A stretch of DNA of 64,000 bases, from the sequence record MN850584.1; one strand, given 5' to 3'. Positions 1,361 to 62,209 of the stretch are shown here, piece after piece. The stretch comes from Escherichia phage arall. The notes under the pieces are model-generated. The model saw nothing but the letters and a program-made list of their open reading frames with translations, searched no databases and was not told the origin of the DNA. The number at the start of each line of letters is the position of its first letter. Position 1 is the first letter of the stretch. Both the position numbers and the translations under genes were made by a program.

Positions 1361-1912
1361 ATGCGGATTACTGATAAGTATGTGTTCTTCTTTTCGGCAA
1401 AAGATGAATTTAGCAACTGGTATCTATCATCTTTTATTGAACCTTTAGCTCCCAAGTATAATAATTCTATCACAAGTTCTGTCGAATTTACTTGTGTGGA
1501 ACAATATATGATGTGGAGAAAAGCATGTTTGTTTTATGATTACAATATTGCATCTTCTATTTTAACCGGAGATCTAAGATATACAGGAGAAAAAGAACAA
1601 GCATATTATAAGCGACTAGGTAGATTAGTTAAAGATTATGATGAAGACACCTGGACTTCTTTACGGGAGAAGATTGTCAAACGTGGTTTGTATCTTAAAT
1701 ACACACAAAATGAAGATCTCAAAAATAAACTTATTGCTTACGCAGATAAGGAGTTCGTAGAGGCAAGCCCTTATGATTCTATTTATGGTATCAAAATGGG
1801 GATGTGGGATCGGGACGTGGAAAATAAGGATTGTTGGAAAGGACAAAATCTTTTAGGAAAATGGCATACAGACCTTGCTGTTTATCTAAAAACACAATCT
1901 GATATTTCCTGA
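1361..1912 (+). CDS. NADAR (YbiA/DUF1768)-family protein, putative ADP-ribose-processing hydrolase
   Basis: Start overlaps previous stop (TAAATG); N-terminal FFFSAKDEFSNW and internal EQYMMWRKA, ASPYDSIYGIKMG, GQNLLGKWH match NADAR/YbiA conserved blocks. Confidence 0.7.
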   Translation: MRITDKYVFFFSAKDEFSNWYLSSFIEPLAPKYNNSITSSVEFTCVEQYMMWRKACLFYDYNIASSILTGDLRYTGEKEQAYYKRLGRLVKDYDEDTWTSLREKIVKRGLYLKYTQNEDLKNKLIAYADKEFVEASPYDSIYGIKMGMWDRDVENKDCWKGQNLLGKWHTDLAVYLKTQSDIS

Positions 1913-25792: not shown

Positions 25793-26605
25793 TTACTTAG
25801 TCAAATGATCTTCTATCATTTTTATGAAAGCAGGATTGCTAAAAGCATCTGCTGCCTTTTCTCTGTAAACAAAGACTCCTCTATCTTCGTAAAGAAGAGT
25901 TTCTTCGTAATTAATTCCTGGGTTAACAACAATCATTTTTGTACCCATATTAAGTGCAGGGAATAATTCCCAATTAAAATTGATAACTTGGTTTGAACAT
26001 CCTACTACAACAACCAAATCTTGCATGGTCAAAGTATCAAACAAGTGAGCCATATCTGCATACAAAGGTGCAGCCTCACCAAAAAATACAACATTAGGCT
26101 TCACCCAGTTATAATCATCTATGTTTATACTATTGTAACCAATATCTACCAGTGTTTTGTAATCTCCAGGATGCATACGGTAAACTACTTCAGGAAGATA
26201 CCCGTGCACGTGAATAACAGAATCCCTGTCCACACCTGCTCGCTCTAGTAGATCATCAACGTTTGTTGTCAAGTTTACTACTTGGTTAGGATATTCCTTA
26301 AACCACTTTGCTATTTGAATATGTGCAGCATTAGGTTGTACATCTTTAAGCTCAACACGTCTTTTGTTATAAAATTCGTGTGTTTTGGCATACAAGTCCA
26401 TACCGTTCTCGTCTACACCACCGACCACTGGAAGATCTGGAGATGTTCTCACACGATAACCTGCTTGGAAAGCTCCAATATCGCAGACCTCTTCTAAGTC
26501 ATATTCTTCCCATAAGGCACGACCACTATCTGTGTCTGTTCGGAACGTTCGAATCCCACTGTCTGCACTTAAACCTGCGCCACTAACAAAAATTACTCTT
26601 CGCAT
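25793..26605 (-). CDS. Sir2 (sirtuin)-family protein, Zn-ribbon-less
   Basis: GAGLSADSGIRTFR (sirtuin GAGxSxxSGIPxFR), TTNVDDL (TQNID), HVHG catalytic His, VVFFGE; no Cys4 Zn module; RBS AAGAGGA. Confidence 0.8.
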   Translation of the reverse strand: MRRVIFVSGAGLSADSGIRTFRTDTDSGRALWEEYDLEEVCDIGAFQAGYRVRTSPDLPVVGGVDENGMDLYAKTHEFYNKRRVELKDVQPNAAHIQIAKWFKEYPNQVVNLTTNVDDLLERAGVDRDSVIHVHGYLPEVVYRMHPGDYKTLVDIGYNSINIDDYNWVKPNVVFFGEAAPLYADMAHLFDTLTMQDLVVVVGCSNQVINFNWELFPALNMGTKMIVVNPGINYEETLLYEDRGVFVYREKAADAFSNPAFIKMIEDHLTK

Positions 26606-28928: not shown

Positions 28929-29339
28929 TTACTTCTTCTCCTTAACACTAGCTGGTAATTCTGCCTTGAGGCAGAAGTTTAAACGGTAAGCCTCATTCTC
29001 ATTTAAAAGTACAGATTCACACGATAACCAGAACAAGAGATCCTCAATACCAGGGCTGTTAAGCCAACAGTGCAGAAGAGAATGTTGTTCTATATCAATG
29101 TAATTTAGTAACAAGGCTTGTAAGGCGTAACTAGTTCCTGTCGTTTTTGCTTTTTCAAGGATGATATTGTGTTTACTAACAACTTTCTTCTTAAGACCAA
29201 ACCATTTATTAACAACAACAGTCTCTTCTTGTAGTTGTTTTCTTATTTTCTCACATTCTTTAACTACAATCTGCATCTTATCCACTGCTGATTGAAGTTG
29301 TTCTTTTGTTGGGTTTACAAAATAGTCACTATAGTACAT
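28929..29339 (-). CDS. Hypothetical protein (136 aa)
   Basis: ORF in operon. Confidence 0.55.
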   Translation of the reverse strand: MYYSDYFVNPTKEQLQSAVDKMQIVVKECEKIRKQLQEETVVVNKWFGLKKKVVSKHNIILEKAKTTGTSYALQALLLNYIDIEQHSLLHCWLNSPGIEDLLFWLSCESVLLNENEAYRLNFCLKAELPASVKEKK

Positions 29340-29396
29340 GCTAATCTTCTCCTCTTCTGTTTTTCTGTAGTTTATTCGAAAAAACTGGTGTTGTCA

Positions 29397-29424
29397 ACAA
29401 AAAACCCGCCGAAGCGGGTTTATA
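29397..29424 (-). terminator. Terminator hairpin AACCCGC-CGAA-GCGGGTT with T-run on minus strand, followed by TTGACA
   Basis: Variant of 111-133 family; internal terminator/promoter junction in minus block. Confidence 0.6.
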
Positions 29425-29682
29425 TTATTCTACAGGAACTTCTTCACCAAGAGAAACTTCTAAACGGAATGCTTTACTTTCAATACACTCACTACCTTTT
29501 AGAAAATCAAATTGCACTATAGACTGACTTAATAGGATAGATAGAATCACATCACAATCTTCACTAGGAGCTAGATGTTTGTATTCTTCCTTCAAGGTAA
29601 CATCATAAAAACATAAATCCCCTACTCCTAGTTCATCCCATCCTTCCCACGCATCTACAAAGTTAAACTCTAAACCTTTCAT
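29425..29682 (-). CDS. Hypothetical protein (85 aa)
   Basis: ORF. Confidence 0.5.
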   Translation of the reverse strand: MKGLEFNFVDAWEGWDELGVGDLCFYDVTLKEEYKHLAPSEDCDVILSILLSQSIVQFDFLKGSECIESKAFRLEVSLGEEVPVE

Positions 29683-30203
29683 ACAACCTCCTCGTAGTTG
29701 TTATTGTGTTTTACTGTCTCAACATACAATAAAGATTCCATCTGTAATACATTACCAGAAATAATAAACCCGTAAGCCATTTCAGATGTGTCTATATCAT
29801 ATGCCCCGTCTTCCGGTTTAGCAAAGTGTAAAACTATTTCATCTGGGTTTTCTTCATCCCATAGTTTAGAAATTTTCCGAACCAGAATGTTAGCTAAAAT
29901 AGTTGACATTCGGGATAAAGCTGTATCCTCGTATCTTTTAAAACCTAACCAATAGAGGTTAAGAATTTCTACTTCTTCTTGTGTTAAGTTTTTGTCTAAA
30001 GTAATCAGATCTGTAGGATACATCGTTTTTGTTGAACCTACTGTTACAAAACCTGGAGTGTTATGAAAAACAATCTTAACTTTATCACGTATAAAGTTTA
30101 AACCTTGTGCCTCAACTATATATTGTATTGTAGGTACAATATCGTTTGTTACATCAATAAAACTATCTTTAATGACGCTTATATTATTTCTGGACAAGAC
30201 CAT
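29679..30203 (-). CDS. Hypothetical protein (174 aa)
   Basis: ORF, overlapping stop/start. Confidence 0.55.
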   Translation of the reverse strand: MVLSRNNISVIKDSFIDVTNDIVPTIQYIVEAQGLNFIRDKVKIVFHNTPGFVTVGSTKTMYPTDLITLDKNLTQEEVEILNLYWLGFKRYEDTALSRMSTILANILVRKISKLWDEENPDEIVLHFAKPEDGAYDIDTSEMAYGFIISGNVLQMESLLYVETVKHNNNYEEVV

Positions 30204-30762
30204 TCTCCTCTAAAATAGGCTTAATAAATTCGAAAATTTGTTTTTTACTTTTATCTCGAATATTAAAACAAGGAACATTAAACTTTTTAGCCAACATCCA
30301 AGCTGTTCTTGTACCACCTAAAGGATCTCCATTTTTATCTGTATTTGCACAAGCTAAAAGAAAACAAGATGGTTTTGGATTCTCAAGATCTCTTCCAAGA
30401 ACTTGGTGGATATTTCTTTGATGTAATTTTTTAGCACCTTGAGATAATCTGTCCCAAGCTGGATGCAATTCTTTTGCATATTGCAAGGTTAGAGCATAGT
30501 TTACACTATCTGGTCTGTCAAGAACAATAACCTCTCCCTCTATTTCATTACCTTTAAACGAGAGCCAAGGGATGTATATTTCTTTCTTTGTATTGTTCCC
30601 ACTATCATATACCCCGCATTCAAATGCGGAATCTGCACCTTCTGCTTTACCAGATCGCAAAATGAACCATGTAGATAACCATTTTGCAACAGATACCATA
30701 GTATCCCATTCTTCGTCTGTAATATCTCTGCTACCAACACCTGTGTAGAATAAATCGCTCAT
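30184..30762 (-). CDS. DprA/Smf-like Rossmann-fold (SLOG-superfamily) protein
   Basis: Start at MSDLFY (RBS AAGGAG); TGVGSR ... SGKAEGAD pattern typical of DprA/LOG/SLOG nucleotide-binding folds; motif recall only. Confidence 0.4.
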   Translation of the reverse strand: MSDLFYTGVGSRDITDEEWDTMVSVAKWLSTWFILRSGKAEGADSAFECGVYDSGNNTKKEIYIPWLSFKGNEIEGEVIVLDRPDSVNYALTLQYAKELHPAWDRLSQGAKKLHQRNIHQVLGRDLENPKPSCFLLACANTDKNGDPLGGTRTAWMLAKKFNVPCFNIRDKSKKQIFEFIKPILEENGLVQK

Positions 30763-30772
30763 GGTTTTCTCC

Positions 30773-31093
30773 TTAACAAGTAATATTGGGAGTAACAATT
30801 GGATTAACAATTGGAGTAATAGGGTACGTAAACCAAGGGCTTCCAATTTCCCAAGGATAATAAGGTCTACGAGGATCGTATGGAGGAGTTACTTCAGGCT
30901 TTTTCCAAATCTCCGCTAATTGTTTCTTCCATTTATCCCTTGCTGTCTCATTATCTTCATCCAACTGTTCATCATTATCTTTTATTTCTGGTTTTGGAAA
31001 TAAAAGCTCTTTGACTAATTCAACATCTTCCGTCTCAATAGTAGTTTCTTTCGTAAGTTCTCCTACTGTTTCTTTAATTGTGATTTTATACAT
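30773..31093 (-). CDS. Pro/Glu-rich hypothetical protein (106 aa)
   Basis: ORF. Confidence 0.5.
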   Translation of the reverse strand: MYKITIKETVGELTKETTIETEDVELVKELLFPKPEIKDNDEQLDEDNETARDKWKKQLAEIWKKPEVTPPYDPRRPYYPWEIGSPWFTYPITPIVNPIVTPNITC

Positions 31094-31839
31094 TAGTCCT
31101 CCTCTAAAGTAGAATAAAATTGTAACGTATTTGAATCATCAAAATATGCAAAGGTTAAATTACCATTGAAGCAAGATCCTGTGTCCATATATACCCTATT
31201 ACTGCTAATCACAGGTTTAGGAACATAAGAATGCCCGTGAAATACATAATCTACTCCTGAAACCCTAGGAAGAAGAATCCCTTCAAGTGCGCAATCTATC
31301 ATATCACGATCCCACATTAAAGATTCTGTGAATTGAGAAACTTGCTCTTTATTCATATTCAAACAAAATGGCAAAACTTCTGTCACTGGTAAATGTTCCA
31401 AAACTGAAGGATACCCACCGTGAATAAAGCCTAGTTTCATATTACGATAATTGACAACAAGTACAACAGGTAAATCTTCTAGCATCAAAGCAAGAGCAGT
31501 TGCACCCTCTTCTCCACACTCGTCTAGAACTGTATGGCCTCCGTTCTGAAACCAACATTCGTAATATCGTCTATCACCTTCTAACAACCCTTTAATCATC
31601 ATATCTTCATGATTTCCACGAATACCATAACGATTTAGCTTTCTGGTGAATTCAACAACACAACGAAAATTCTGCTTGCCGCGATCTGTAAGATCTCCTA
31701 AAGATACAACAACATCTTGATCTCGGATACCTAAAGTATTAACACCTTTCTGGTACAAATCAAAGCAACCATGTAAATCACCAATAATAAACAGGTCTTG
31801 ATCATCTTTTACACTAATTTCTTGATATACTAACATCAA
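31093..31839 (-). CDS. Calcineurin-like metallophosphatase (Ser/Thr protein phosphatase family)
   Basis: GDLHG, GDLTDRG, GNHE motifs. Confidence 0.8.
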   Translation of the reverse strand: MMLVYQEISVKDDQDLFIIGDLHGCFDLYQKGVNTLGIRDQDVVVSLGDLTDRGKQNFRCVVEFTRKLNRYGIRGNHEDMMIKGLLEGDRRYYECWFQNGGHTVLDECGEEGATALALMLEDLPVVLVVNYRNMKLGFIHGGYPSVLEHLPVTEVLPFCLNMNKEQVSQFTESLMWDRDMIDCALEGILLPRVSGVDYVFHGHSYVPKPVISSNRVYMDTGSCFNGNLTFAYFDDSNTLQFYSTLEED

Positions 31840-32162
31840 CTCTCCTCAAAATCCATAAGTATAAAGATATTAACTTTACCTTCTATATTATGTTCTACAA
31901 CAAGATCTGCAAATTCTTTGTAGGCTTTTTCTTCTATTTGTTCAATGTGAGACGCTACATCTTTGTATATAGCGTCACCATCTACTTTAACAAGGAGGAA
32001 TAGAGATCTTACTTCAATCTCTTTATTTTTACGGGGTAGAAAATCGACGGCTTCTTGTATACGCCAGCCGAGATACCCTGGAGTCCTTTGAATATCCTCC
32101 AAATGACTTTCTAAGATTTCCCTTCCTTTGTCTATTAAAGCCTGTTCTGTCGTTATTTTCAT
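31836..32162 (-). CDS. Hypothetical protein (108 aa)
   Basis: ORF. Confidence 0.5.
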   Translation of the reverse strand: MKITTEQALIDKGREILESHLEDIQRTPGYLGWRIQEAVDFLPRKNKEIEVRSLFLLVKVDGDAIYKDVASHIEQIEEKAYKEFADLVVEHNIEGKVNIFILMDFEES

Positions 32163-32172
32163 CCCCTTCTCC

Positions 32173-32745
32173 TTAATGTGTTAATGAAACTGCGTAGCTA
32201 AACACAGGTTCAGATATTACATCGGCTACAGTAATAAAAACGTCTTCGTCTTGAGTTGTTTCTACACGACATACAGTTACACCATTCACCACGAATTCAA
32301 CGCAATGTGGAATATCTTCACAAACGAAGGTAGTGTAAGTAACACCCAAAGCATCATACAAAGATTTAACAGTGTTTGCAAGTGCCGCAGTTTCTTCTTT
32401 TTCTGAGACAATGAATGCTGTAACAACAAGATTGTTTGCATAGTTTAGACTGTCCTCTATAGCCAATGATTTACAAGGTAGTAATGCAAAATATTTACCT
32501 GGTTTAATCAGACCTGCTTCCCATTGATTCAAAATTGCCTGGGATGGTTTAGTAATATAAAACAGATTTTCACTTGGGTTATCAATATTACTTCTGGCGA
32601 TACAACGTGAAGGATTATTATTATCAAATACATGATCAAAATCTACACAAACAGGTAAACTGAAAGGTGTGAATTTTTTACCTAATAATCCTATGGCTGA
32701 TAATATGTTTGCTGTGCTTATCTTCCCGTTAAAAGCTAAACGCAT
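32173..32745 (-). CDS. Hypothetical protein (190 aa)
   Basis: ORF. Confidence 0.55.
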   Translation of the reverse strand: MRLAFNGKISTANILSAIGLLGKKFTPFSLPVCVDFDHVFDNNNPSRCIARSNIDNPSENLFYITKPSQAILNQWEAGLIKPGKYFALLPCKSLAIEDSLNYANNLVVTAFIVSEKEETAALANTVKSLYDALGVTYTTFVCEDIPHCVEFVVNGVTVCRVETTQDEDVFITVADVISEPVFSYAVSLTH

Positions 32746-32756
32746 ATTTAACTCCT

Positions 32757-32960
32757 TTAACTAGCAACCGTAACTTCCGAACTTTCTTCTTTCGTACTGT
32801 CTACGATATGCCTGGTGGCAATATACGAGACTTGCCAGTTACCATCTGGTGTAGTCTCAATAAGTACCCTATCTACTTCGAGAAAATGCAAAAATTCAAC
32901 CATCGCTCGCTTCGATAGGAATTGTTTTTTAACAGTCTCCTCAAAAGATTGAACTGCCAT
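32757..32960 (-). CDS. Hypothetical protein (67 aa)
   Basis: ORF. Confidence 0.45.
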   Translation of the reverse strand: MAVQSFEETVKKQFLSKRAMVEFLHFLEVDRVLIETTPDGNWQVSYIATRHIVDSTKEESSEVTVAS

Positions 32961-32969
32961 GTTTCCTCC

Positions 32970-33632
32970 TTATTTAATATTCAATTTTGCACAAAGACGT
33001 TGTACCGCTTTGGCATCGAACAAACTCCCACGAATAGTTCTCTTTCCTGATTCATTCAGATGTTTTGCAATCGTCATATATGGCGTTTTACAAGCTCTGT
33101 ATGCAACTAAAGAATCTTTTAAAGAAAGCGCAAACTCTTTTGAGCGTTTTGCTTCTTCCGTTTTCGTATAATCTGTTCTTTTGTATTTAGGGTTTGCTGC
33201 ACCAAGAAGCGTTCCCTTCGCTTTTGCTACTTTAAGGCTCTTCTTAACACGATCAGATATTGCACGAGCCTCTTCTTCTGCCAGAACTGCTAAAATATTT
33301 ATTATCATATTTTCAGCGGAGGGCATAGTTGCTATTCGTACATTAATCATCTCTAACAAGGTTGCAACAGAAGCTGTGTTACGTCCAAGACGGTCAACCT
33401 TAGCAACAACAAGTGTAGCACCTGTTTCTTTGCAAAGATTAACAGCTTTTACAAGCTCTCTACGTTGCTTCCAATCGCCTTTACCCGAATAAAACTCTGC
33501 AAAGCTACCTACAATAGTATAATTTTCTTGTGAATCCAGGAAGCGTTGGATATCTGCTTCCTGTGATTCTATACCATACTGGTTGCCTTGTTGTTTCTTC
33601 TTAGAAAGTCGATGATACAGTACAAACTTCAT
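32970..33632 (-). CDS. Serine recombinase (resolvase/invertase family) with C-terminal HTH
   Basis: YHRLSKKKQ (catalytic Ser region), VAKVDRLGRN hallmark, ~220 aa. Confidence 0.8.
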   Translation of the reverse strand: MKFVLYHRLSKKKQQGNQYGIESQEADIQRFLDSQENYTIVGSFAEFYSGKGDWKQRRELVKAVNLCKETGATLVVAKVDRLGRNTASVATLLEMINVRIATMPSAENMIINILAVLAEEEARAISDRVKKSLKVAKAKGTLLGAANPKYKRTDYTKTEEAKRSKEFALSLKDSLVAYRACKTPYMTIAKHLNESGKRTIRGSLFDAKAVQRLCAKLNIK

Positions 33633-61315: not shown

Positions 61316-62209
61316 ATGAAAGTTAGTATTCTACATGGTGTTGACTGTTATGTTACTGATGTAGACGTTAAAGTCTTTACATTCTCTGGTGGAGAACAAC
61401 ATGTTCAACTAGATACGAATCTATCAGGTTTCAATCATGCTACAGACAGAATCTTACTCTCTTTAGAAGTAAGATCTGCTAAAGACTTGATGACTTTGGT
61501 TATGACTAAGAATGCATTGGACAATATGCTATATCATAAACCATATTGTGTTGATTTGCTCATGTTGTATGTGCCATATGCACGACAAGACAGAGTGTGT
61601 GAACCTGGGGAAGCATTCGGAGTTAAAGCATTTGCTTCTATAATTAATTCATTAAATTTCTCACGTGTTATCGTTGCTGATCCACATAGTGATGTTACTC
61701 CAGCGGTGTTTGACAGACTCTGTGTAATACCTCAAGAAGAGATTGCTTACGAAACTTTAAAGTGGAAGTTACGTATGGAGAATTTTGCTCTTGTTAGTCC
61801 TGATGGTGGTGCTCTTAAGAAAATATTTAAATTATCTAAGAAAATGTCTTTAGATGTGTTCTGTGCAGAGAAGGTTAGAGATACTGCAACAGGTGCTATT
61901 GTTCGTACAGACATTTCTGTACAGGATTTCAATAAGCGTAACCTGATGATCGTAGATGATATCTGTGACGGCGGTAGAACTTTTATTGAATTGGCTAAAG
62001 TGCTACGTGCTCGTAACGCAGGTAAGATTGAGTTATATGTTACACACGGTATCTTTTCTAAAGGTCTTAAAGAGTTAAGTGAGCACTTTGACTGCATTCA
62101 TTCTCTTAATGTGTGGGAAGATAACATCCAAGAAGATTCCGGTGTTCTTGTTAAGAATCAGTCAGATTTGCAACAACAAATTGTATCTCCATACGTGTGG
62201 AATTTTTAA
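61316..62209 (+). CDS. Ribose-phosphate pyrophosphokinase (Prs)-family protein; candidate ADP-ribose pyrophosphokinase of NARP1-type pathway
   Basis: VPYARQDRV, ADPHS, VSPDGGA, MIVDDICDGGRTFIEL...YVTHGIFSKG parallel recalled Prs; adjacent to NAMPT-like gene. Confidence 0.8.
   Translation: MKVSILHGVDCYVTDVDVKVFTFSGGEQHVQLDTNLSGFNHATDRILLSLEVRSAKDLMTLVMTKNALDNMLYHKPYCVDLLMLYVPYARQDRVCEPGEAFGVKAFASIINSLNFSRVIVADPHSDVTPAVFDRLCVIPQEEIAYETLKWKLRMENFALVSPDGGALKKIFKLSKKMSLDVFCAEKVRDTATGAIVRTDISVQDFNKRNLMIVDDICDGGRTFIELAKVLRARNAGKIELYVTHGIFSKGLKELSEHFDCIHSLNVWEDNIQEDSGVLVKNQSDLQQQIVSPYVWNF

What the first reader, a model, noticed from the sequence alone, without database searches (positions are those of the whole stretch)
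30184..30762. Standalone DprA/SLOG-like Rossmann protein, possible nucleotide-signal binder
The TGVGSR and SGxAEGAD pattern is typical of the DprA/LOG/SLOG fold. SLOG domains bind nucleotide-derived ligands and in defence systems sense signalling molecules. A free-standing phage copy might sequester a host immune signal as a sponge, or act in DNA processing as DprA does. This is speculative.
Basis: inference. Interest (0 to 1): 0.5.

Follow-up and report, generated by a model that had tools for sequence, protein, structure and literature searches.

The report
Phage DprA-like SLOG pocket protein
This is a real and already catalogued gene (phi92 gp047) for a small nucleotide-pocket protein distantly related to the bacterial DNA-uptake protein DprA; it belongs to a very large phage-specific family whose relatives are fused to ADP-ribose-removing enzymes, which suggests a role in countering host defences, but its function has never been tested.

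Summary
Window 30184-30762 (minus strand) is a 192-aa gene with a Shine-Dalgarno site. It is 99.5% identical to phi92 gp047, which is already labelled "DprA-like". AlphaFold gives a confident SLOG/Rossmann fold (pLDDT 96.5).

The protein belongs to a large clade restricted to phages and mobile elements (about 6,000 clusters; about 1,500 phage genomes). This clade is a remote, collinear relative of the DprA Rossmann domain:
- Both published DprA pocket motifs (GSR, LxxRN) are invariant.
- It fails Pfam's DprA threshold.
- It lacks the LOG PGGxGTxxE glutamate.
- It has extra invariant polar residues (R36, W66, H100, H114, Q120).

Relatives are fused to NADAR or DUF4326, or lie next to NADAR, DUF4326, Macro, RNA ligase 2, DNA ligase or a UvrD helicase. 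This phage also carries a separate, unannotated NADAR gene (window 1361-1912). Its close relatives carry a separate DUF4326 gene.

My preferred reading (about 0.37) is a protein that grips single-stranded nucleic acid or a flipped base and helps protect or repair phage nucleic acid alongside ADP-ribose-removing enzymes. A role on soluble ADP-ribose-derived molecules (about 0.3, of which a pure sponge is about 0.1) and a classical RecA-loading role (about 0.15) remain open. The "sponge" idea has no direct support. The finding is known and moderately interesting.

The parts
30184..30762 (-). CDS of the 192-aa DprA-like SLOG protein (phi92 gp047 ortholog), stop codon included
   Evidence: ORF, translation; phrog_768, E=2e-60; 99.5% nt identity to phage inny, 98.8% to phi92; AF2 pLDDT 96.5
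30768..30772 (-). Shine-Dalgarno GGAGA, 5 nt upstream of the ATG; overlaps the end of the upstream gene gp048
   Evidence: sequence; phi92 annotation lists an AGGAG ribosome-binding site for gene 047
30727..30744 (-). [quoted passage not shown] It matches DprA signature 'G-S/T/A-R'. G10 and R12 are conserved in 99% of 241 sequences
   Evidence: conservation; aligns to GSR/GTR of DprA; role of HpDprA R52
30631..30657 (-). Motif II, R36-S-G-K-A-E-G-A-D44, in the loop after strand 2. It aligns to DprA 'SGLARGID'. R36 is specific to this family
30394..30426 (-). Motif V, L113-H-Q-R-N-I-H-Q-V-L-G123. It matches DprA signature 'F/L/Y-x-x-R-N/D'. R116, N117, Q120 and G123 are 100% conserved and H114 is 99.6% conserved
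   Evidence: aligns to FPRRN of E. coli Smf; HpDprA F140/R143/N144 hold the flipped base
30301..30318 (-). Motif VI, G149-G-T-R-T-A154, in the loop after strand 4. It aligns to DprA 'SGSLxT'. There is no acidic residue where LOG has the Glu of PGGxGTxxE
1361..1912 (+). Separate NADAR-domain gene (183 aa) in the same phage, annotated only as hypothetical in relatives. It is a candidate functional partner; this is inferred from NADAR-SLOG fusions elsewhere and has not been shown
   Evidence: phmmer vs PDB 8BAU NADAR, E=9.5e-13; YbiA E=0.033; local NADAR HMM, E=3.6e-5; fusions
29679..30203 (-). Downstream gene gp046 (174 aa, phrog_8569, unknown function). Its start overlaps the end of the SLOG gene by 20 nt, so it is probably co-translated
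30773..31093 (-). Upstream gene gp048 (106 aa, phrog_15301, unknown function), in the same transcription direction

Best explanation
gp047 is a single-domain member of a clade restricted to phages and mobile elements, on the DprA side of the SLOG superfamily.

Shown:
- It has a SLOG Rossmannoid fold.
- It is collinear with the DprA Rossmann domain.
- It keeps, invariantly, the two motifs (G-S-R and L-x-x-R-N) that in H. pylori DprA and in ShosA form the small basic pocket where one base of single-stranded DNA inserts.

Inferred: the protein grips single-stranded nucleic acid, or a nucleotide moiety attached to it, through this pocket. It serves as an accessory counter-defence or repair factor that protects or restores phage DNA/RNA after host attack such as base ADP-ribosylation or nicking. 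It would act alongside ADP-ribose-removing enzymes (the NADAR encoded at window 1361-1912, and DUF4326 elsewhere in the genome) and, in other lineages, alongside ligases. In relatives where it is fused to NADAR, it would act as the substrate-holding module. The extra invariant polar residues (R36, W66, H100, H114, Q120) suggest that the pocket recognises something more polar than a plain base, possibly a modified (ADP-ribosylated) nucleotide. They may even support catalysis. It is probably not a RecA loader in the sense of transformation DprA.
For: Fold and homology:
- AF2 pLDDT 96.5.
- 55 of 62 family members give their only recurrent Pfam hit to PF02481 DprA.
- Local hhalign against 81 authentic DprA sequences gives 84% probability, E=7e-6, over 141 collinear columns. 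It pairs GSR with GSR, RSGxAxGAD with TSGLARGID, LHxRN with FPRRN, and GGTxTA with SGSLxT.

Pocket:
- Wang 2014 defines 'G-S/T/A-R' and 'F/L/Y-x-x-R-N/D' as the signatures of the ssDNA-binding DprA domain. R52E and R143E reduce binding 315-fold and 173-fold.
- The equivalent ShosA arginines are needed for ssDNA binding and for antitoxin function.
- In the phage family these residues are 96-100% conserved across 241 sequences.

Context:
- Fusions: NADAR-SLOG (P0139, P0203); DUF4326-SLOG or SLOG-DUF4326 (P0204, P0212, P0216, P0071); giant proteins with several SLOG domains plus NADAR (P0121, P0122).
- One gene row reads Macro | DUF4326 | NADAR-SLOG.
- P0121 lies in an anti-restriction region of a conjugative element with ArdC, RadC, SSB and ParB.
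- Another row reads DNA ligase - DUF4326 - SLOG.
- In PAK_P3 the order is DNA ligase ... SLOG ... UvrD helicase.
- In many T4-like genera the gene directly follows RNA ligase 2.
- The same phage type carries SLOG, NADAR and DUF4326 as separate genes.

Partner biochemistry:
- Every NADAR tested removes ADP-ribose from guanine in DNA (PMC11543638, PMC11125620).
- T4 NADAR (AdfN) defeats DarTG1 and may need an unidentified phage co-factor (PMC11825919).
Against: - No binding or activity has been measured for any member of this family.
- The protein fails Pfam's DprA gathering threshold. Single-sequence matches cover only the N-terminal motif. hhalign in global mode gives only 13% probability.
- gp047 is not basic (pI 6.3; family median 7.8).
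- HpDprA needs a dimer with two pockets to hold ssDNA, and I could not test dimerisation here.
- Most SLOG families bind small molecules. The extra polar invariants, and the giant proteins with three different SLOG domains, fit small-ligand recognition at least as well.
- Linkage to NADAR and DUF4326 is sporadic: within 10 kb in 2 and 4 of 80 viral loci. Most members sit among anonymous small ORFs.
Confidence: 0.37

Rival explanations
1. Processor, sensor or sponge of a soluble ligand. The pocket binds a free ADP-ribose-derived or other nucleotide immune signal or toxin (cADPR isomers, ADPR derivatives and the like) and either cleaves it or sequesters it. It would work in series with NADAR, Macro, DUF4326 and Nudix enzymes. 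This is the published computational prediction for viral SLOG domains, and it includes the first reader's sponge idea as the non-catalytic sub-case.
For: - Most characterised SLOG domains bind small molecules. LOG, the MoCo-carrier protein, the ThsA SLOG domain with 3'cADPR and TRPM2 are all among the structural matches.
- Many invariant polar residues lie beyond the DprA motifs: R36, W66, H100, H114, Q120, N167.
- Fusions and neighbourhoods include NADAR, DUF4326 and Macro.
- The giant proteins combine three different SLOG domains with NADAR.
- Iyer et al. 2022 predict that viral SLOGs degrade or sense cADPR-like signals.
- The phage is invested in NAD+/ADPR conflict. It carries Sir2 and a Prs-like plus Nampt-like pair that resembles NARP1.
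- The pI is near neutral.
Against: - The LOG catalytic motif is absent, and no member hits Pfam LOG or YpsA.
- The conserved pocket motifs are the ones that hold a base of ssDNA in DprA.
- The only demonstrated NADAR substrates are ADP-ribosylated bases in nucleic acids.
- Recurrent neighbours include RNA ligase, DNA ligase and a helicase.
- No known sponge (Tad1/2, Acb2 and others) resembles this fold.
- For the pure sponge sub-case specifically there is no supporting evidence at all; I put it at about 0.1.
Confidence: 0.3
2. Genuine DprA-type recombination mediator or ssDNA protector, as the database label says. The protein would dimerise, coat ssDNA and hand it to host RecA or a phage recombinase.
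For: - It shares remote homology and pocket motifs with DprA.
- Some bona fide DprAs are single-domain (Wang 2014).
- Iyer et al. 2021 suggested that phage DprA/Smf copies might serve as extra ssDNA-binding proteins in recombination.
- The gene is conserved as a core gene across the genus and in related genera.
Against: - No RecA, UvsX, Sak or Erf-type recombinase and no SSB is annotated in the phi92-like genome.
- None of the roughly 15 neighbourhoods inspected shows a recombinase.
- T4-like phages that have their own UvsX/UvsY also carry the gene, placed next to RNA ligase 2.
- It fails the Pfam DprA threshold.
- It lacks the SAM and winged-helix accessory domains.
- Fusion partners are ADP-ribose hydrolases, not recombination proteins.
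- For the related phage protein ORF83, EVADES found that the DprA dimerisation and RecA-contact residues are missing and that the predicted RecA interaction is poor. That result does not apply directly to gp047.
Confidence: 0.15
3. LOG-like nucleotide phosphoribohydrolase. The protein would cleave the N-glycosidic bond of AMP or another free nucleotide to reshape nucleotide pools, as EVADES predicted for the anti-Avs3 protein ORF83.
For: - An Arg (R116) and a Thr (T151) occupy positions that correspond by motif register to the LOG Arg and Thr of PGGxGT.
- The gene lies in a region rich in nucleotide-metabolism genes: RNR, thymidylate synthase, thymidine kinase.
Against: - The defining PGGxGTxxE glutamate is absent. 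Positions T+2 and T+3 are Thr (94%) and Ala (99%), never acidic.
- No member hits Pfam PF03641.
- ORF83 differs in motif spacing (23 vs 27-38) and has Asp at T+2, so it belongs to a different clade and its prediction does not transfer.
Confidence: 0.08

Closest known systems
DprA/Smf Rossmann-fold domain (Pfam PF02481; structures 4LJK/4LJR, 3UQZ, 3MAJ)
   Same: - Same fold and strand order, collinear over about 140 residues.
- Both published DprA signature motifs (G-S/T/A-R and F/L/Y-x-x-R-N/D) are present and invariant.
- The SGxAxGxD and G-[GS]-[ST] loops also align.
   Different: - Below the Pfam gathering score, with only 13-21% identity.
- No SAM or winged-helix domains.
- An insert of about 45 residues between strand 3 and the RN helix carries the invariant W66 and H100.
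- Additional invariants R36, H114 and Q120.
- Found in phages and mobile elements, with ADP-ribose-hydrolase fusion partners instead of a competence or RecA context.
ShosA, the DprA-like antitoxin of the ShosTA anti-phage system (PDB 8ZVA; PMC12961424)
   Same: - A DprA-type Rossmann domain used in phage-host conflict and not in transformation.
- Its ssDNA-binding arginines correspond to R12 and R116.
   Different: - ShosA is 328 aa with a SAM domain and a C-terminal dimerisation helix.
- It is host-encoded, pairs with a PRTase toxin and binds RecA.
- gp047 is a bare domain on the phage side. A role as an antitoxin mimic was not tested.
Viral SLOG domains of the NAD+/ADP-ribose network (Iyer, Burroughs, Anantharaman, Aravind 2022, PMC9503650; 2021, PMC7824862)
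   Same: - Standalone phage SLOG proteins enriched in larger phages.
- Fusions to NADAR, Macro and DUF4326 and sporadic links to helicases, exactly as I found for this family.
   Different: - Those papers place most viral SLOGs in the YpsA-like clade and predict action on soluble cADPR-type signals. This family scores closest to DprA and shows no YpsA or YAcAr Pfam signal.
- I could not check whether gp047 is in their dataset, because no supplement is held.
ORF83, a phage anti-type-III-Avs protein annotated Smf/DprA (EVADES preprint 10.1101/2025.06.06.658234)
   Same: - A small standalone phage SLOG protein with an R-N ... G-G-T type pocket.
- Its homologs are fused to DUF4326.
- It is the only SLOG-type phage protein with an experimentally observed anti-defence phenotype.
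   Different: - Different clade. Its best structural match is LOG, not DprA. Its R-to-T spacing is 23 against 27-38 here, and it has Asp where this family has Thr.
- Its Marseillevirus-type relatives match the gp047 model only at TM about 0.45.
- I could not obtain its sequence, so homology was not tested directly.
LOG / PpnN phosphoribohydrolases and the ThsA SLOG sensor domain
   Different: - The LOG catalytic PGGxGTxxE motif is absent.
- ThsA SLOG is a more distant match and is always fused to an effector.

Membership tests
SLOG superfamily (SMF/DprA-LOG Rossmannoid) | Three-layer alpha/beta fold with a five-stranded parallel sheet and ligand-binding loops after strands 1, 2 and 4 | tested here: met
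DprA/Smf (Pfam PF02481) | Score above the Pfam gathering threshold (29.6 bits) | tested here: not met
   gp047 has no hit even at E<=10. Among 5 homologs scanned individually the scores were 24.4-26.8 bits, and the match covered only profile positions 45-97 of 212. One fusion protein, P0245, reached 29.2 bits.
DprA/Smf | Signature motif 1 'G-S/T/A-R' in the loop after the first core strand (Wang 2014) | tested here: met
   G10-S11-R12, conserved in 99%, 94% and 99% of 241 sequences. It aligns to GSR of Smf and GTR of HpDprA.
DprA/Smf | Signature motif 2 'F/L/Y-x-x-R-N/D' on the pocket helix (Wang 2014) | tested here: met
   L113-H-Q-R116-N117: L 96%, R 100%, N 100%. It aligns to FPRRN of Smf.
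DprA/Smf | Profile-level homology across the whole Rossmann domain | tested here: inconclusive
   hhalign in local mode: 84% probability, E=7e-6, 141 columns. In global mode: 13%. Against a single Smf sequence: 12.8% over 40 columns.
DprA/Smf | Accessory SAM and/or C-terminal winged-helix (DML1) domains | tested here: not met
   The protein is 192 aa with one domain. Authentic DprAs retrieved here carry PF17782 and/or PF25317. Some true DprAs are single-domain, so this feature is not strictly required.
DprA/Smf | Homodimerisation, ssDNA binding and RecA interaction | not testable with these tools
   No multimer prediction and no model coordinates were available. This needs biochemistry or AF-Multimer/AF3.
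LOG (Pfam PF03641) | PGGxGTxxE motif with the catalytic Glu | tested here: not met
   The motif here is G-G-T-x-T-A. Positions +2 and +3 after the Thr are Thr (234 of 262 GGT motif matches in 257 sequences; 94% of 241 aligned sequences) and Ala (99%), never acidic. 0 of 62 members hit PF03641.
ThsA-type SLOG signal sensor / phage signal sponges | Closest structural similarity to a known cADPR-binding SLOG or to a known sponge fold (Tad1, Tad2, Acb2) | tested here: not met
Viral ADP-ribose-processing network (SLOG with NADAR, Macro, DUF4326; Iyer 2022) | Recurrent fusion or adjacency of family members to NADAR, Macro or DUF4326, and co-occurrence in the same genome | tested here: met
   Among the 150 top representatives plus P0071 there are 4 NADAR and 4 DUF4326 fusions. 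A Macro|DUF4326|NADAR-SLOG row exists. The same phage type has NADAR and DUF4326. Adjacency is sporadic: 2 and 4 of 80 loci. gp047 itself is unfused.
PADLOC / known defence-system components | Match to a model of a known or candidate defence protein | tested here: not met
   No hit at E<=10.

The most novel reading that the evidence does not exclude
The gp047 family could be a widespread, uncharacterised class of phage counter-defence factor that has converted the DprA base-flipping pocket into a reader, or a hydrolase, of ADP-ribosylated nucleotides in single-stranded DNA or RNA. It would work as the missing substrate-presenting partner of phage NADAR-type de-ADP-ribosylases. The AdfN study suspected an 'additional phage protein' of this kind. 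Under this reading, the standard database label 'recombination mediator' would be wrong for about 1,500 phage genomes.
Probability: 0.15. Interest if true: 0.7.

Novelty: already known. Interest (0 to 1): 0.38.

Why it matters
The family is common. It occurs in about 3% of deposited phage genomes, including phi92/rV5-like, PAK_P3/PaP1-like, many T4-like, N4-like and jumbo phages that are used in phage therapy. It is annotated everywhere as a 'DprA-like DNA recombination-mediator', a label that rests on one short motif match.

If it is instead part of the ADP-ribose-centred counter-defence toolkit, acting on DNA adducts or on soluble signals, three things follow:
- A widespread annotation would be corrected.
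- A candidate partner for phage NADAR enzymes (anti-DarTG) would be identified.
- A new anti-defence gene class would be available for predicting phage host range.

The necessary experiments are simple, because K-12-infecting relatives (inny, alia) exist.

Tried and rejected
- Single-sequence searches of gp047 against Pfam, NCBIfam, PADLOC and PDB sequences found nothing. Only PHROGs and profile methods work.
- I repeated the PDB profile search by mistake and learned nothing new.
- I could not obtain the ORF83 sequence. It is not in the held EVADES supplements, and the PMC id I recalled for Gao 2022 is not held. Its relation to gp047 therefore rests on motif spacing only. I rejected the idea that gp047 is an ORF83 ortholog.
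- Burroughs 2015 (the paper that defined SLOG) is not held.
- Two recurrent fusion modules remain unidentified after Pfam, PDB and PHROG searches and one large homology search. One carries 'VFVFGSNxxGxHGxGAA...YAIPT' (phrog_2072). The other carries 'YEVSxKGDKRFS' (phrog_9995).
- I looked for conserved synteny with NADAR or DUF4326 in 80 viral loci and found only sporadic adjacency. I therefore rejected the idea of an obligate operon.
- I looked for a recombinase or SSB in the phi92-like genome annotation and found none.
- I checked whether T4, T2 or RB69 carry the family, to test the AdfN co-factor idea. None appeared among the listed rows, so the idea is not supported for T-even phages proper. 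Absence is not proven.
Full report
**1. The observation**

- The window is a phi92-like E. coli myovirus of the genus Justusliebigvirus. Region 29000-33000 is 99.5% identical to phage inny and 98.8% identical to phi92.
- The feature is a minus-strand gene. Its ATG is at 30762 and its stop codon at 30186-30184, giving 192 aa.
- A GGAGA ribosome-binding site lies 5 nt upstream of the ATG.
- The gene sits in a tightly packed leftward gene run. gp048 ends 11 nt upstream, and gp046 starts 20 nt before the stop codon.
- Both quoted motifs are present: TGVGSR at residues 7-12 and SGKAEGAD at residues 37-44.
- It is the ortholog of phi92 gp047. The 2012 phi92 annotation already notes a 'potential DNA processing protein like fold', and RefSeq names it 'DprA-like DNA recombination-mediator protein'.
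- That name comes from phrog_768, which gp047 matches at E=2e-60. Pfam, NCBIfam, PADLOC and PDB sequence searches with the single protein found nothing.

**2. Fold and family**

- A 62-sequence alignment gave an AlphaFold2 model with pLDDT 96.5 and pTM 0.92. It has a five-stranded Rossmannoid core.
- Foldseek against the PDB puts H. pylori DprA first (E=7e-6, TM 0.60). Next come the MoCo-carrier protein, S. pneumoniae DprA, ShosA, ThsA, LOG enzymes and YpsA.
- The SLOG superfamily assignment is therefore certain. Structure alone does not resolve the branch.
- Sequence does better. 55 of 62 family members give a weak hit to Pfam DprA, 12 hit SLOG cluster 4, and none hit LOG, YpsA or YAcAr.
- All those DprA hits are below the gathering score and cover only profile positions 45-97 of 212.
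- I compared a 241-sequence family profile with 81 authentic DprA sequences using hhalign. Local mode gave 84% probability, E=7e-6 and 141 collinear columns. It pairs GSR with GSR, RSGxAxGAD with TSGLARGID, LHQRN with FPRRN, and GGTRTA with SGSLVT. Global mode gave only 13%.
- Against predicted viral structures, phage members of the family match at TM 0.7-0.85. The Marseillevirus and YspA/DUF2493 viral SLOGs match at only about 0.45.
- I conclude that this is a distinct, cohesive, phage-centred clade whose nearest cellular relative is the DprA Rossmann domain.

**3. Size and signature of the family**

- An exhaustive profile search found 6,051 representative clusters at E<=1e-3 and 2,092 at E<=1e-30. 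Most are 170-200 aa and standalone.
- tblastn finds the family in 1,510 of 50,697 deposited phage records. These include phi92/rV5-like, PAK_P3/PaP1-like, T4-like, N4-like and jumbo phages.
- Across 241 sequences, the following residues are 94-100% conserved:
  - G10, S11, R12
  - R36, S37, G38, A40, G42, D44
  - P65, W66, F69
  - H100
  - L113, H114, R116, N117, Q120, G123
  - S132
  - G149, G150, T151, T153, A154
  - N167
- Wang et al. 2014 define 'G-S/T/A-R' and 'F/L/Y-x-x-R-N/D' as the two signatures of the ssDNA-binding DprA domain. Together they build a small basic pocket that takes one flipped base. R52E and R143E cut ssDNA affinity 315-fold and 173-fold. LOG is instead marked by PGGxGTxxE.
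- The equivalent arginines of ShosA are required for ssDNA binding and for antitoxin function.
- The phage family has both DprA signatures invariant. It has no acidic residue at the LOG glutamate position.
- It also has invariant polar residues that are not among the two DprA signature motifs of Wang 2014: R36, W66, H100, H114 and Q120. By helical register, H114, N117 and Q120 should face the pocket. This is inference, because I could not inspect coordinates.

**4. Context**

- *Fusions in the top 150 representatives plus P0071.* There are NADAR-SLOG fusions (P0139, P0203). There are DUF4326-SLOG or SLOG-DUF4326 fusions (P0204, P0212, P0216, P0071). Two proteins of about 1,480 aa carry this SLOG plus a YAcAr SLOG, a cluster-4 SLOG and a C-terminal NADAR.
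- *Unidentified fusion modules.* Two further recurrent modules remain unidentified: phrog_2072 and phrog_9995.
- *Neighbourhoods.*
  - One row reads Macro | DUF4326 | NADAR-SLOG.
  - The giant protein lies in an anti-restriction region of a conjugative element with ArdC, two RadC genes, SSB and ParB.
  - Another row reads DNA ligase - DUF4326 - SLOG.
  - In PAK_P3 the order is DNA ligase ... SLOG ... UvrD helicase.
  - A GSP-synthetase-like gene abuts the SLOG gene in two related lineages.
  - In many T4-like genera the gene directly follows RNA ligase 2, overlapping its stop codon.
- *Other members.* They sit among anonymous small ORFs.
- *Linkage frequency.* In 80 viral-contig loci, NADAR lies within about 1 kb in 2 loci and DUF4326 within 10 kb in 4. 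The linkage is sporadic, a Rosetta-stone type of signal and not an operon.
- *This phage.* The three modules are separate genes.
  - The window ORF 1361-1912 is a NADAR protein annotated only as hypothetical (E=9.5e-13 to PDB 8BAU).
  - Relatives carry a DUF4326 protein mislabelled 'NrdA-like'. The local HMM gives E=1e-20, and the gene is conserved in 85 phage records.
  - The window also holds Sir2 and a Prs-like plus Nampt-like pair that resembles the NARP1 NAD+-reconstitution pathway.
  - No recombinase or SSB is annotated anywhere in the genome.

**5. Literature**

- Iyer et al. 2022 surveyed viral NAD+/ADP-ribose systems. They describe standalone viral SLOGs with fusions to Macro, NADAR and DUF4326, and they predict degradation or sensing of cADPR-like signals. 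They note that this is experimentally uncharacterised.
- Iyer et al. 2021 instead suggested that phage DprA/Smf copies may be extra ssDNA-binding proteins.
- EVADES reports ORF83, a phage protein annotated as Smf/DprA that inhibits type III Avs. EVADES predicts that it binds AMP, and its giant-virus homologs are fused to DUF4326.
- ORF83's motif spacing and its Asp residue do not occur in the gp047 family. It is a related clade, not the same one.
- All tested NADARs remove ADP-ribose from guanine in DNA.
- T4 NADAR (AdfN) overcomes DarTG1, and the authors suspect a requirement for an additional phage protein.

**6. Mechanism**

*Shown.*
- The fold.
- Remote, collinear homology to the DprA domain.
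- Invariant DprA pocket motifs.
- Absence of the LOG motif.
- Fusion and neighbourhood links to NADAR, DUF4326 and Macro, and to nucleic-acid ligases and a helicase.
- Co-occurrence of separate NADAR and DUF4326 genes in this phage type.

*Inferred (confidence about 0.37).* The pocket grips single-stranded nucleic acid or a nucleotide moiety attached to it, possibly an ADP-ribosylated base. The protein would act as an accessory factor that protects or repairs phage DNA/RNA, together with de-ADP-ribosylating enzymes and ligases.

*Rivals.*
- Action on soluble ADP-ribose-derived ligands as an enzyme, sensor or sponge: 0.30. The pure sponge version is about 0.1.
- A true RecA-loading DprA: 0.15.
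- A LOG-like nucleotide hydrolase: 0.08.

The evidence does not cleanly separate the first two readings. Small-molecule binding is the norm in the superfamily, and the extra polar invariants and near-neutral pI (6.3) fit it. On the other side, the conserved motifs are exactly the ssDNA and base-pocket motifs, the partners' demonstrated substrates are nucleic-acid adducts, and ligase and helicase neighbours recur.

**7. Verdict**

- The suggestion of a conflict-related nucleotide binder is reasonable and matches a published prediction. The sponge mechanism specifically has no support.
- The gene and its family are already catalogued, and their contextual associations are already published. The finding is therefore not novel in kind.
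- This analysis adds four points:
  - The family is a DprA-side clade that meets the DprA motif definition but fails Pfam membership and the LOG definition.
  - The phage itself encodes unannotated NADAR, and its relatives encode DUF4326.
  - The experimentally characterised ORF83 belongs to a different clade.
  - The 'recombination mediator' label has no contextual support.
- Interest is moderate (0.38). The family is widespread, cheap to test and functionally unresolved, with a plausible route to a new anti-defence function.

Noticed in passing
window 1361-1912 (+): This 183-aa ORF is annotated only as 'hypothetical protein' in relatives (VEcB gp135). It is a NADAR-domain protein: phmmer vs PDB 8BAU gives E=9.5e-13 and E. 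coli YbiA gives E=0.033. Phage NADARs are known anti-DarTG1 enzymes.
   Followed up: partly
outside the window; L012:28863-29246 (-) = NC_052663 126863-127246: VEcB gp157, labelled 'ribonucleotide reductase NrdA-like' (a name taken from T4 nrdA.1), is a DUF4326 protein (local HMM E=1e-20). It is conserved in 85 phage records. The label is misleading.
   Followed up: partly
window 25793-26605 (-): This is a phage-encoded Sir2 protein (PF02146, E=1e-22), 3.6 kb from the SLOG gene. Sir2 stays within 2.7-5.9 kb of the SLOG gene in all phi92/rV5-like relatives sampled (L019-L028). That is lineage synteny, not independent evidence of linkage.
   Followed up: partly
window 61316-62209 (+) and the next gene running to the window end: A Prs-like gene (phrog_619) is followed by a Nampt-like gene (VEcB gp104/gp105). 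The pair looks like the NARP1 NAD+-reconstitution pair Adps + Namat. I did not verify this at the residue level.
   Followed up: no
window 32173-32745 (-): The PHROG-derived name 'histidyl tRNA synthetase' (phrog_4806) for this 190-aa protein has no Pfam support and is probably spurious. A second copy with the same label exists in VEcB (gp163).
   Followed up: no
P0193, P0202, P0253 (C-terminal about 130 aa); P0258-P0377: An unidentified module carries the motif 'VFVFGSNxxGxHGxGAA...YAIPT' (phrog_2072, unknown function). It is fused to the SLOG domain in three proteins and also exists as a very large standalone family (more than 5,600 clusters). It matches nothing in Pfam or the PDB.
   Followed up: partly
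P0197, P0220 (N-terminal about 128 aa): A second unidentified fusion module carries 'YEVSxKGDKRFS...GGTxW' (phrog_9995, unknown function).
   Followed up: partly
L004:8001-12467 (P0121, 1488 aa): This giant polyvalent protein has three different SLOG domains (this family, YAcAr and cluster 4) and a C-terminal NADAR. It lies in an anti-restriction region of a conjugative element, with ParB, an SNF2-like helicase, two RadC genes, ArdC-N+MPTase, DUF2958 and SSB.
   Followed up: partly
L013:4012-5555 (Salmonella phage KM16) and many Klebsiella, Enterobacter and Erwinia T4-like phages: The SLOG gene directly follows RNA ligase 2, with stop/start overlap, across several Straboviridae genera that are 46-77% identical. 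This is conserved synteny pointing to an RNA or nucleic-acid repair context.
   Followed up: partly
L017:3724-5528 and L009:4062-6564: A glutathionylspermidine-synthetase-like ATP-grasp gene (PF03738) lies immediately upstream of the SLOG gene in two related phage lineages. The association is unexplained.
   Followed up: no
/ one search hit lists (e.g. MG065639 'Campylobacter phage A150'): Several records named as Campylobacter phages are about 98% identical to these E. coli phi92-like phages. This suggests mislabelled hosts or contaminated isolates in the public records.
   Followed up: no
P0025 (141 aa), P0033 (108 aa): These truncated or chimeric metagenomic versions of gp047 are 99% identical over half its length, joined to unrelated N- or C-terminal sequence. 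They are probably assembly or frameshift artefacts.
   Followed up: no
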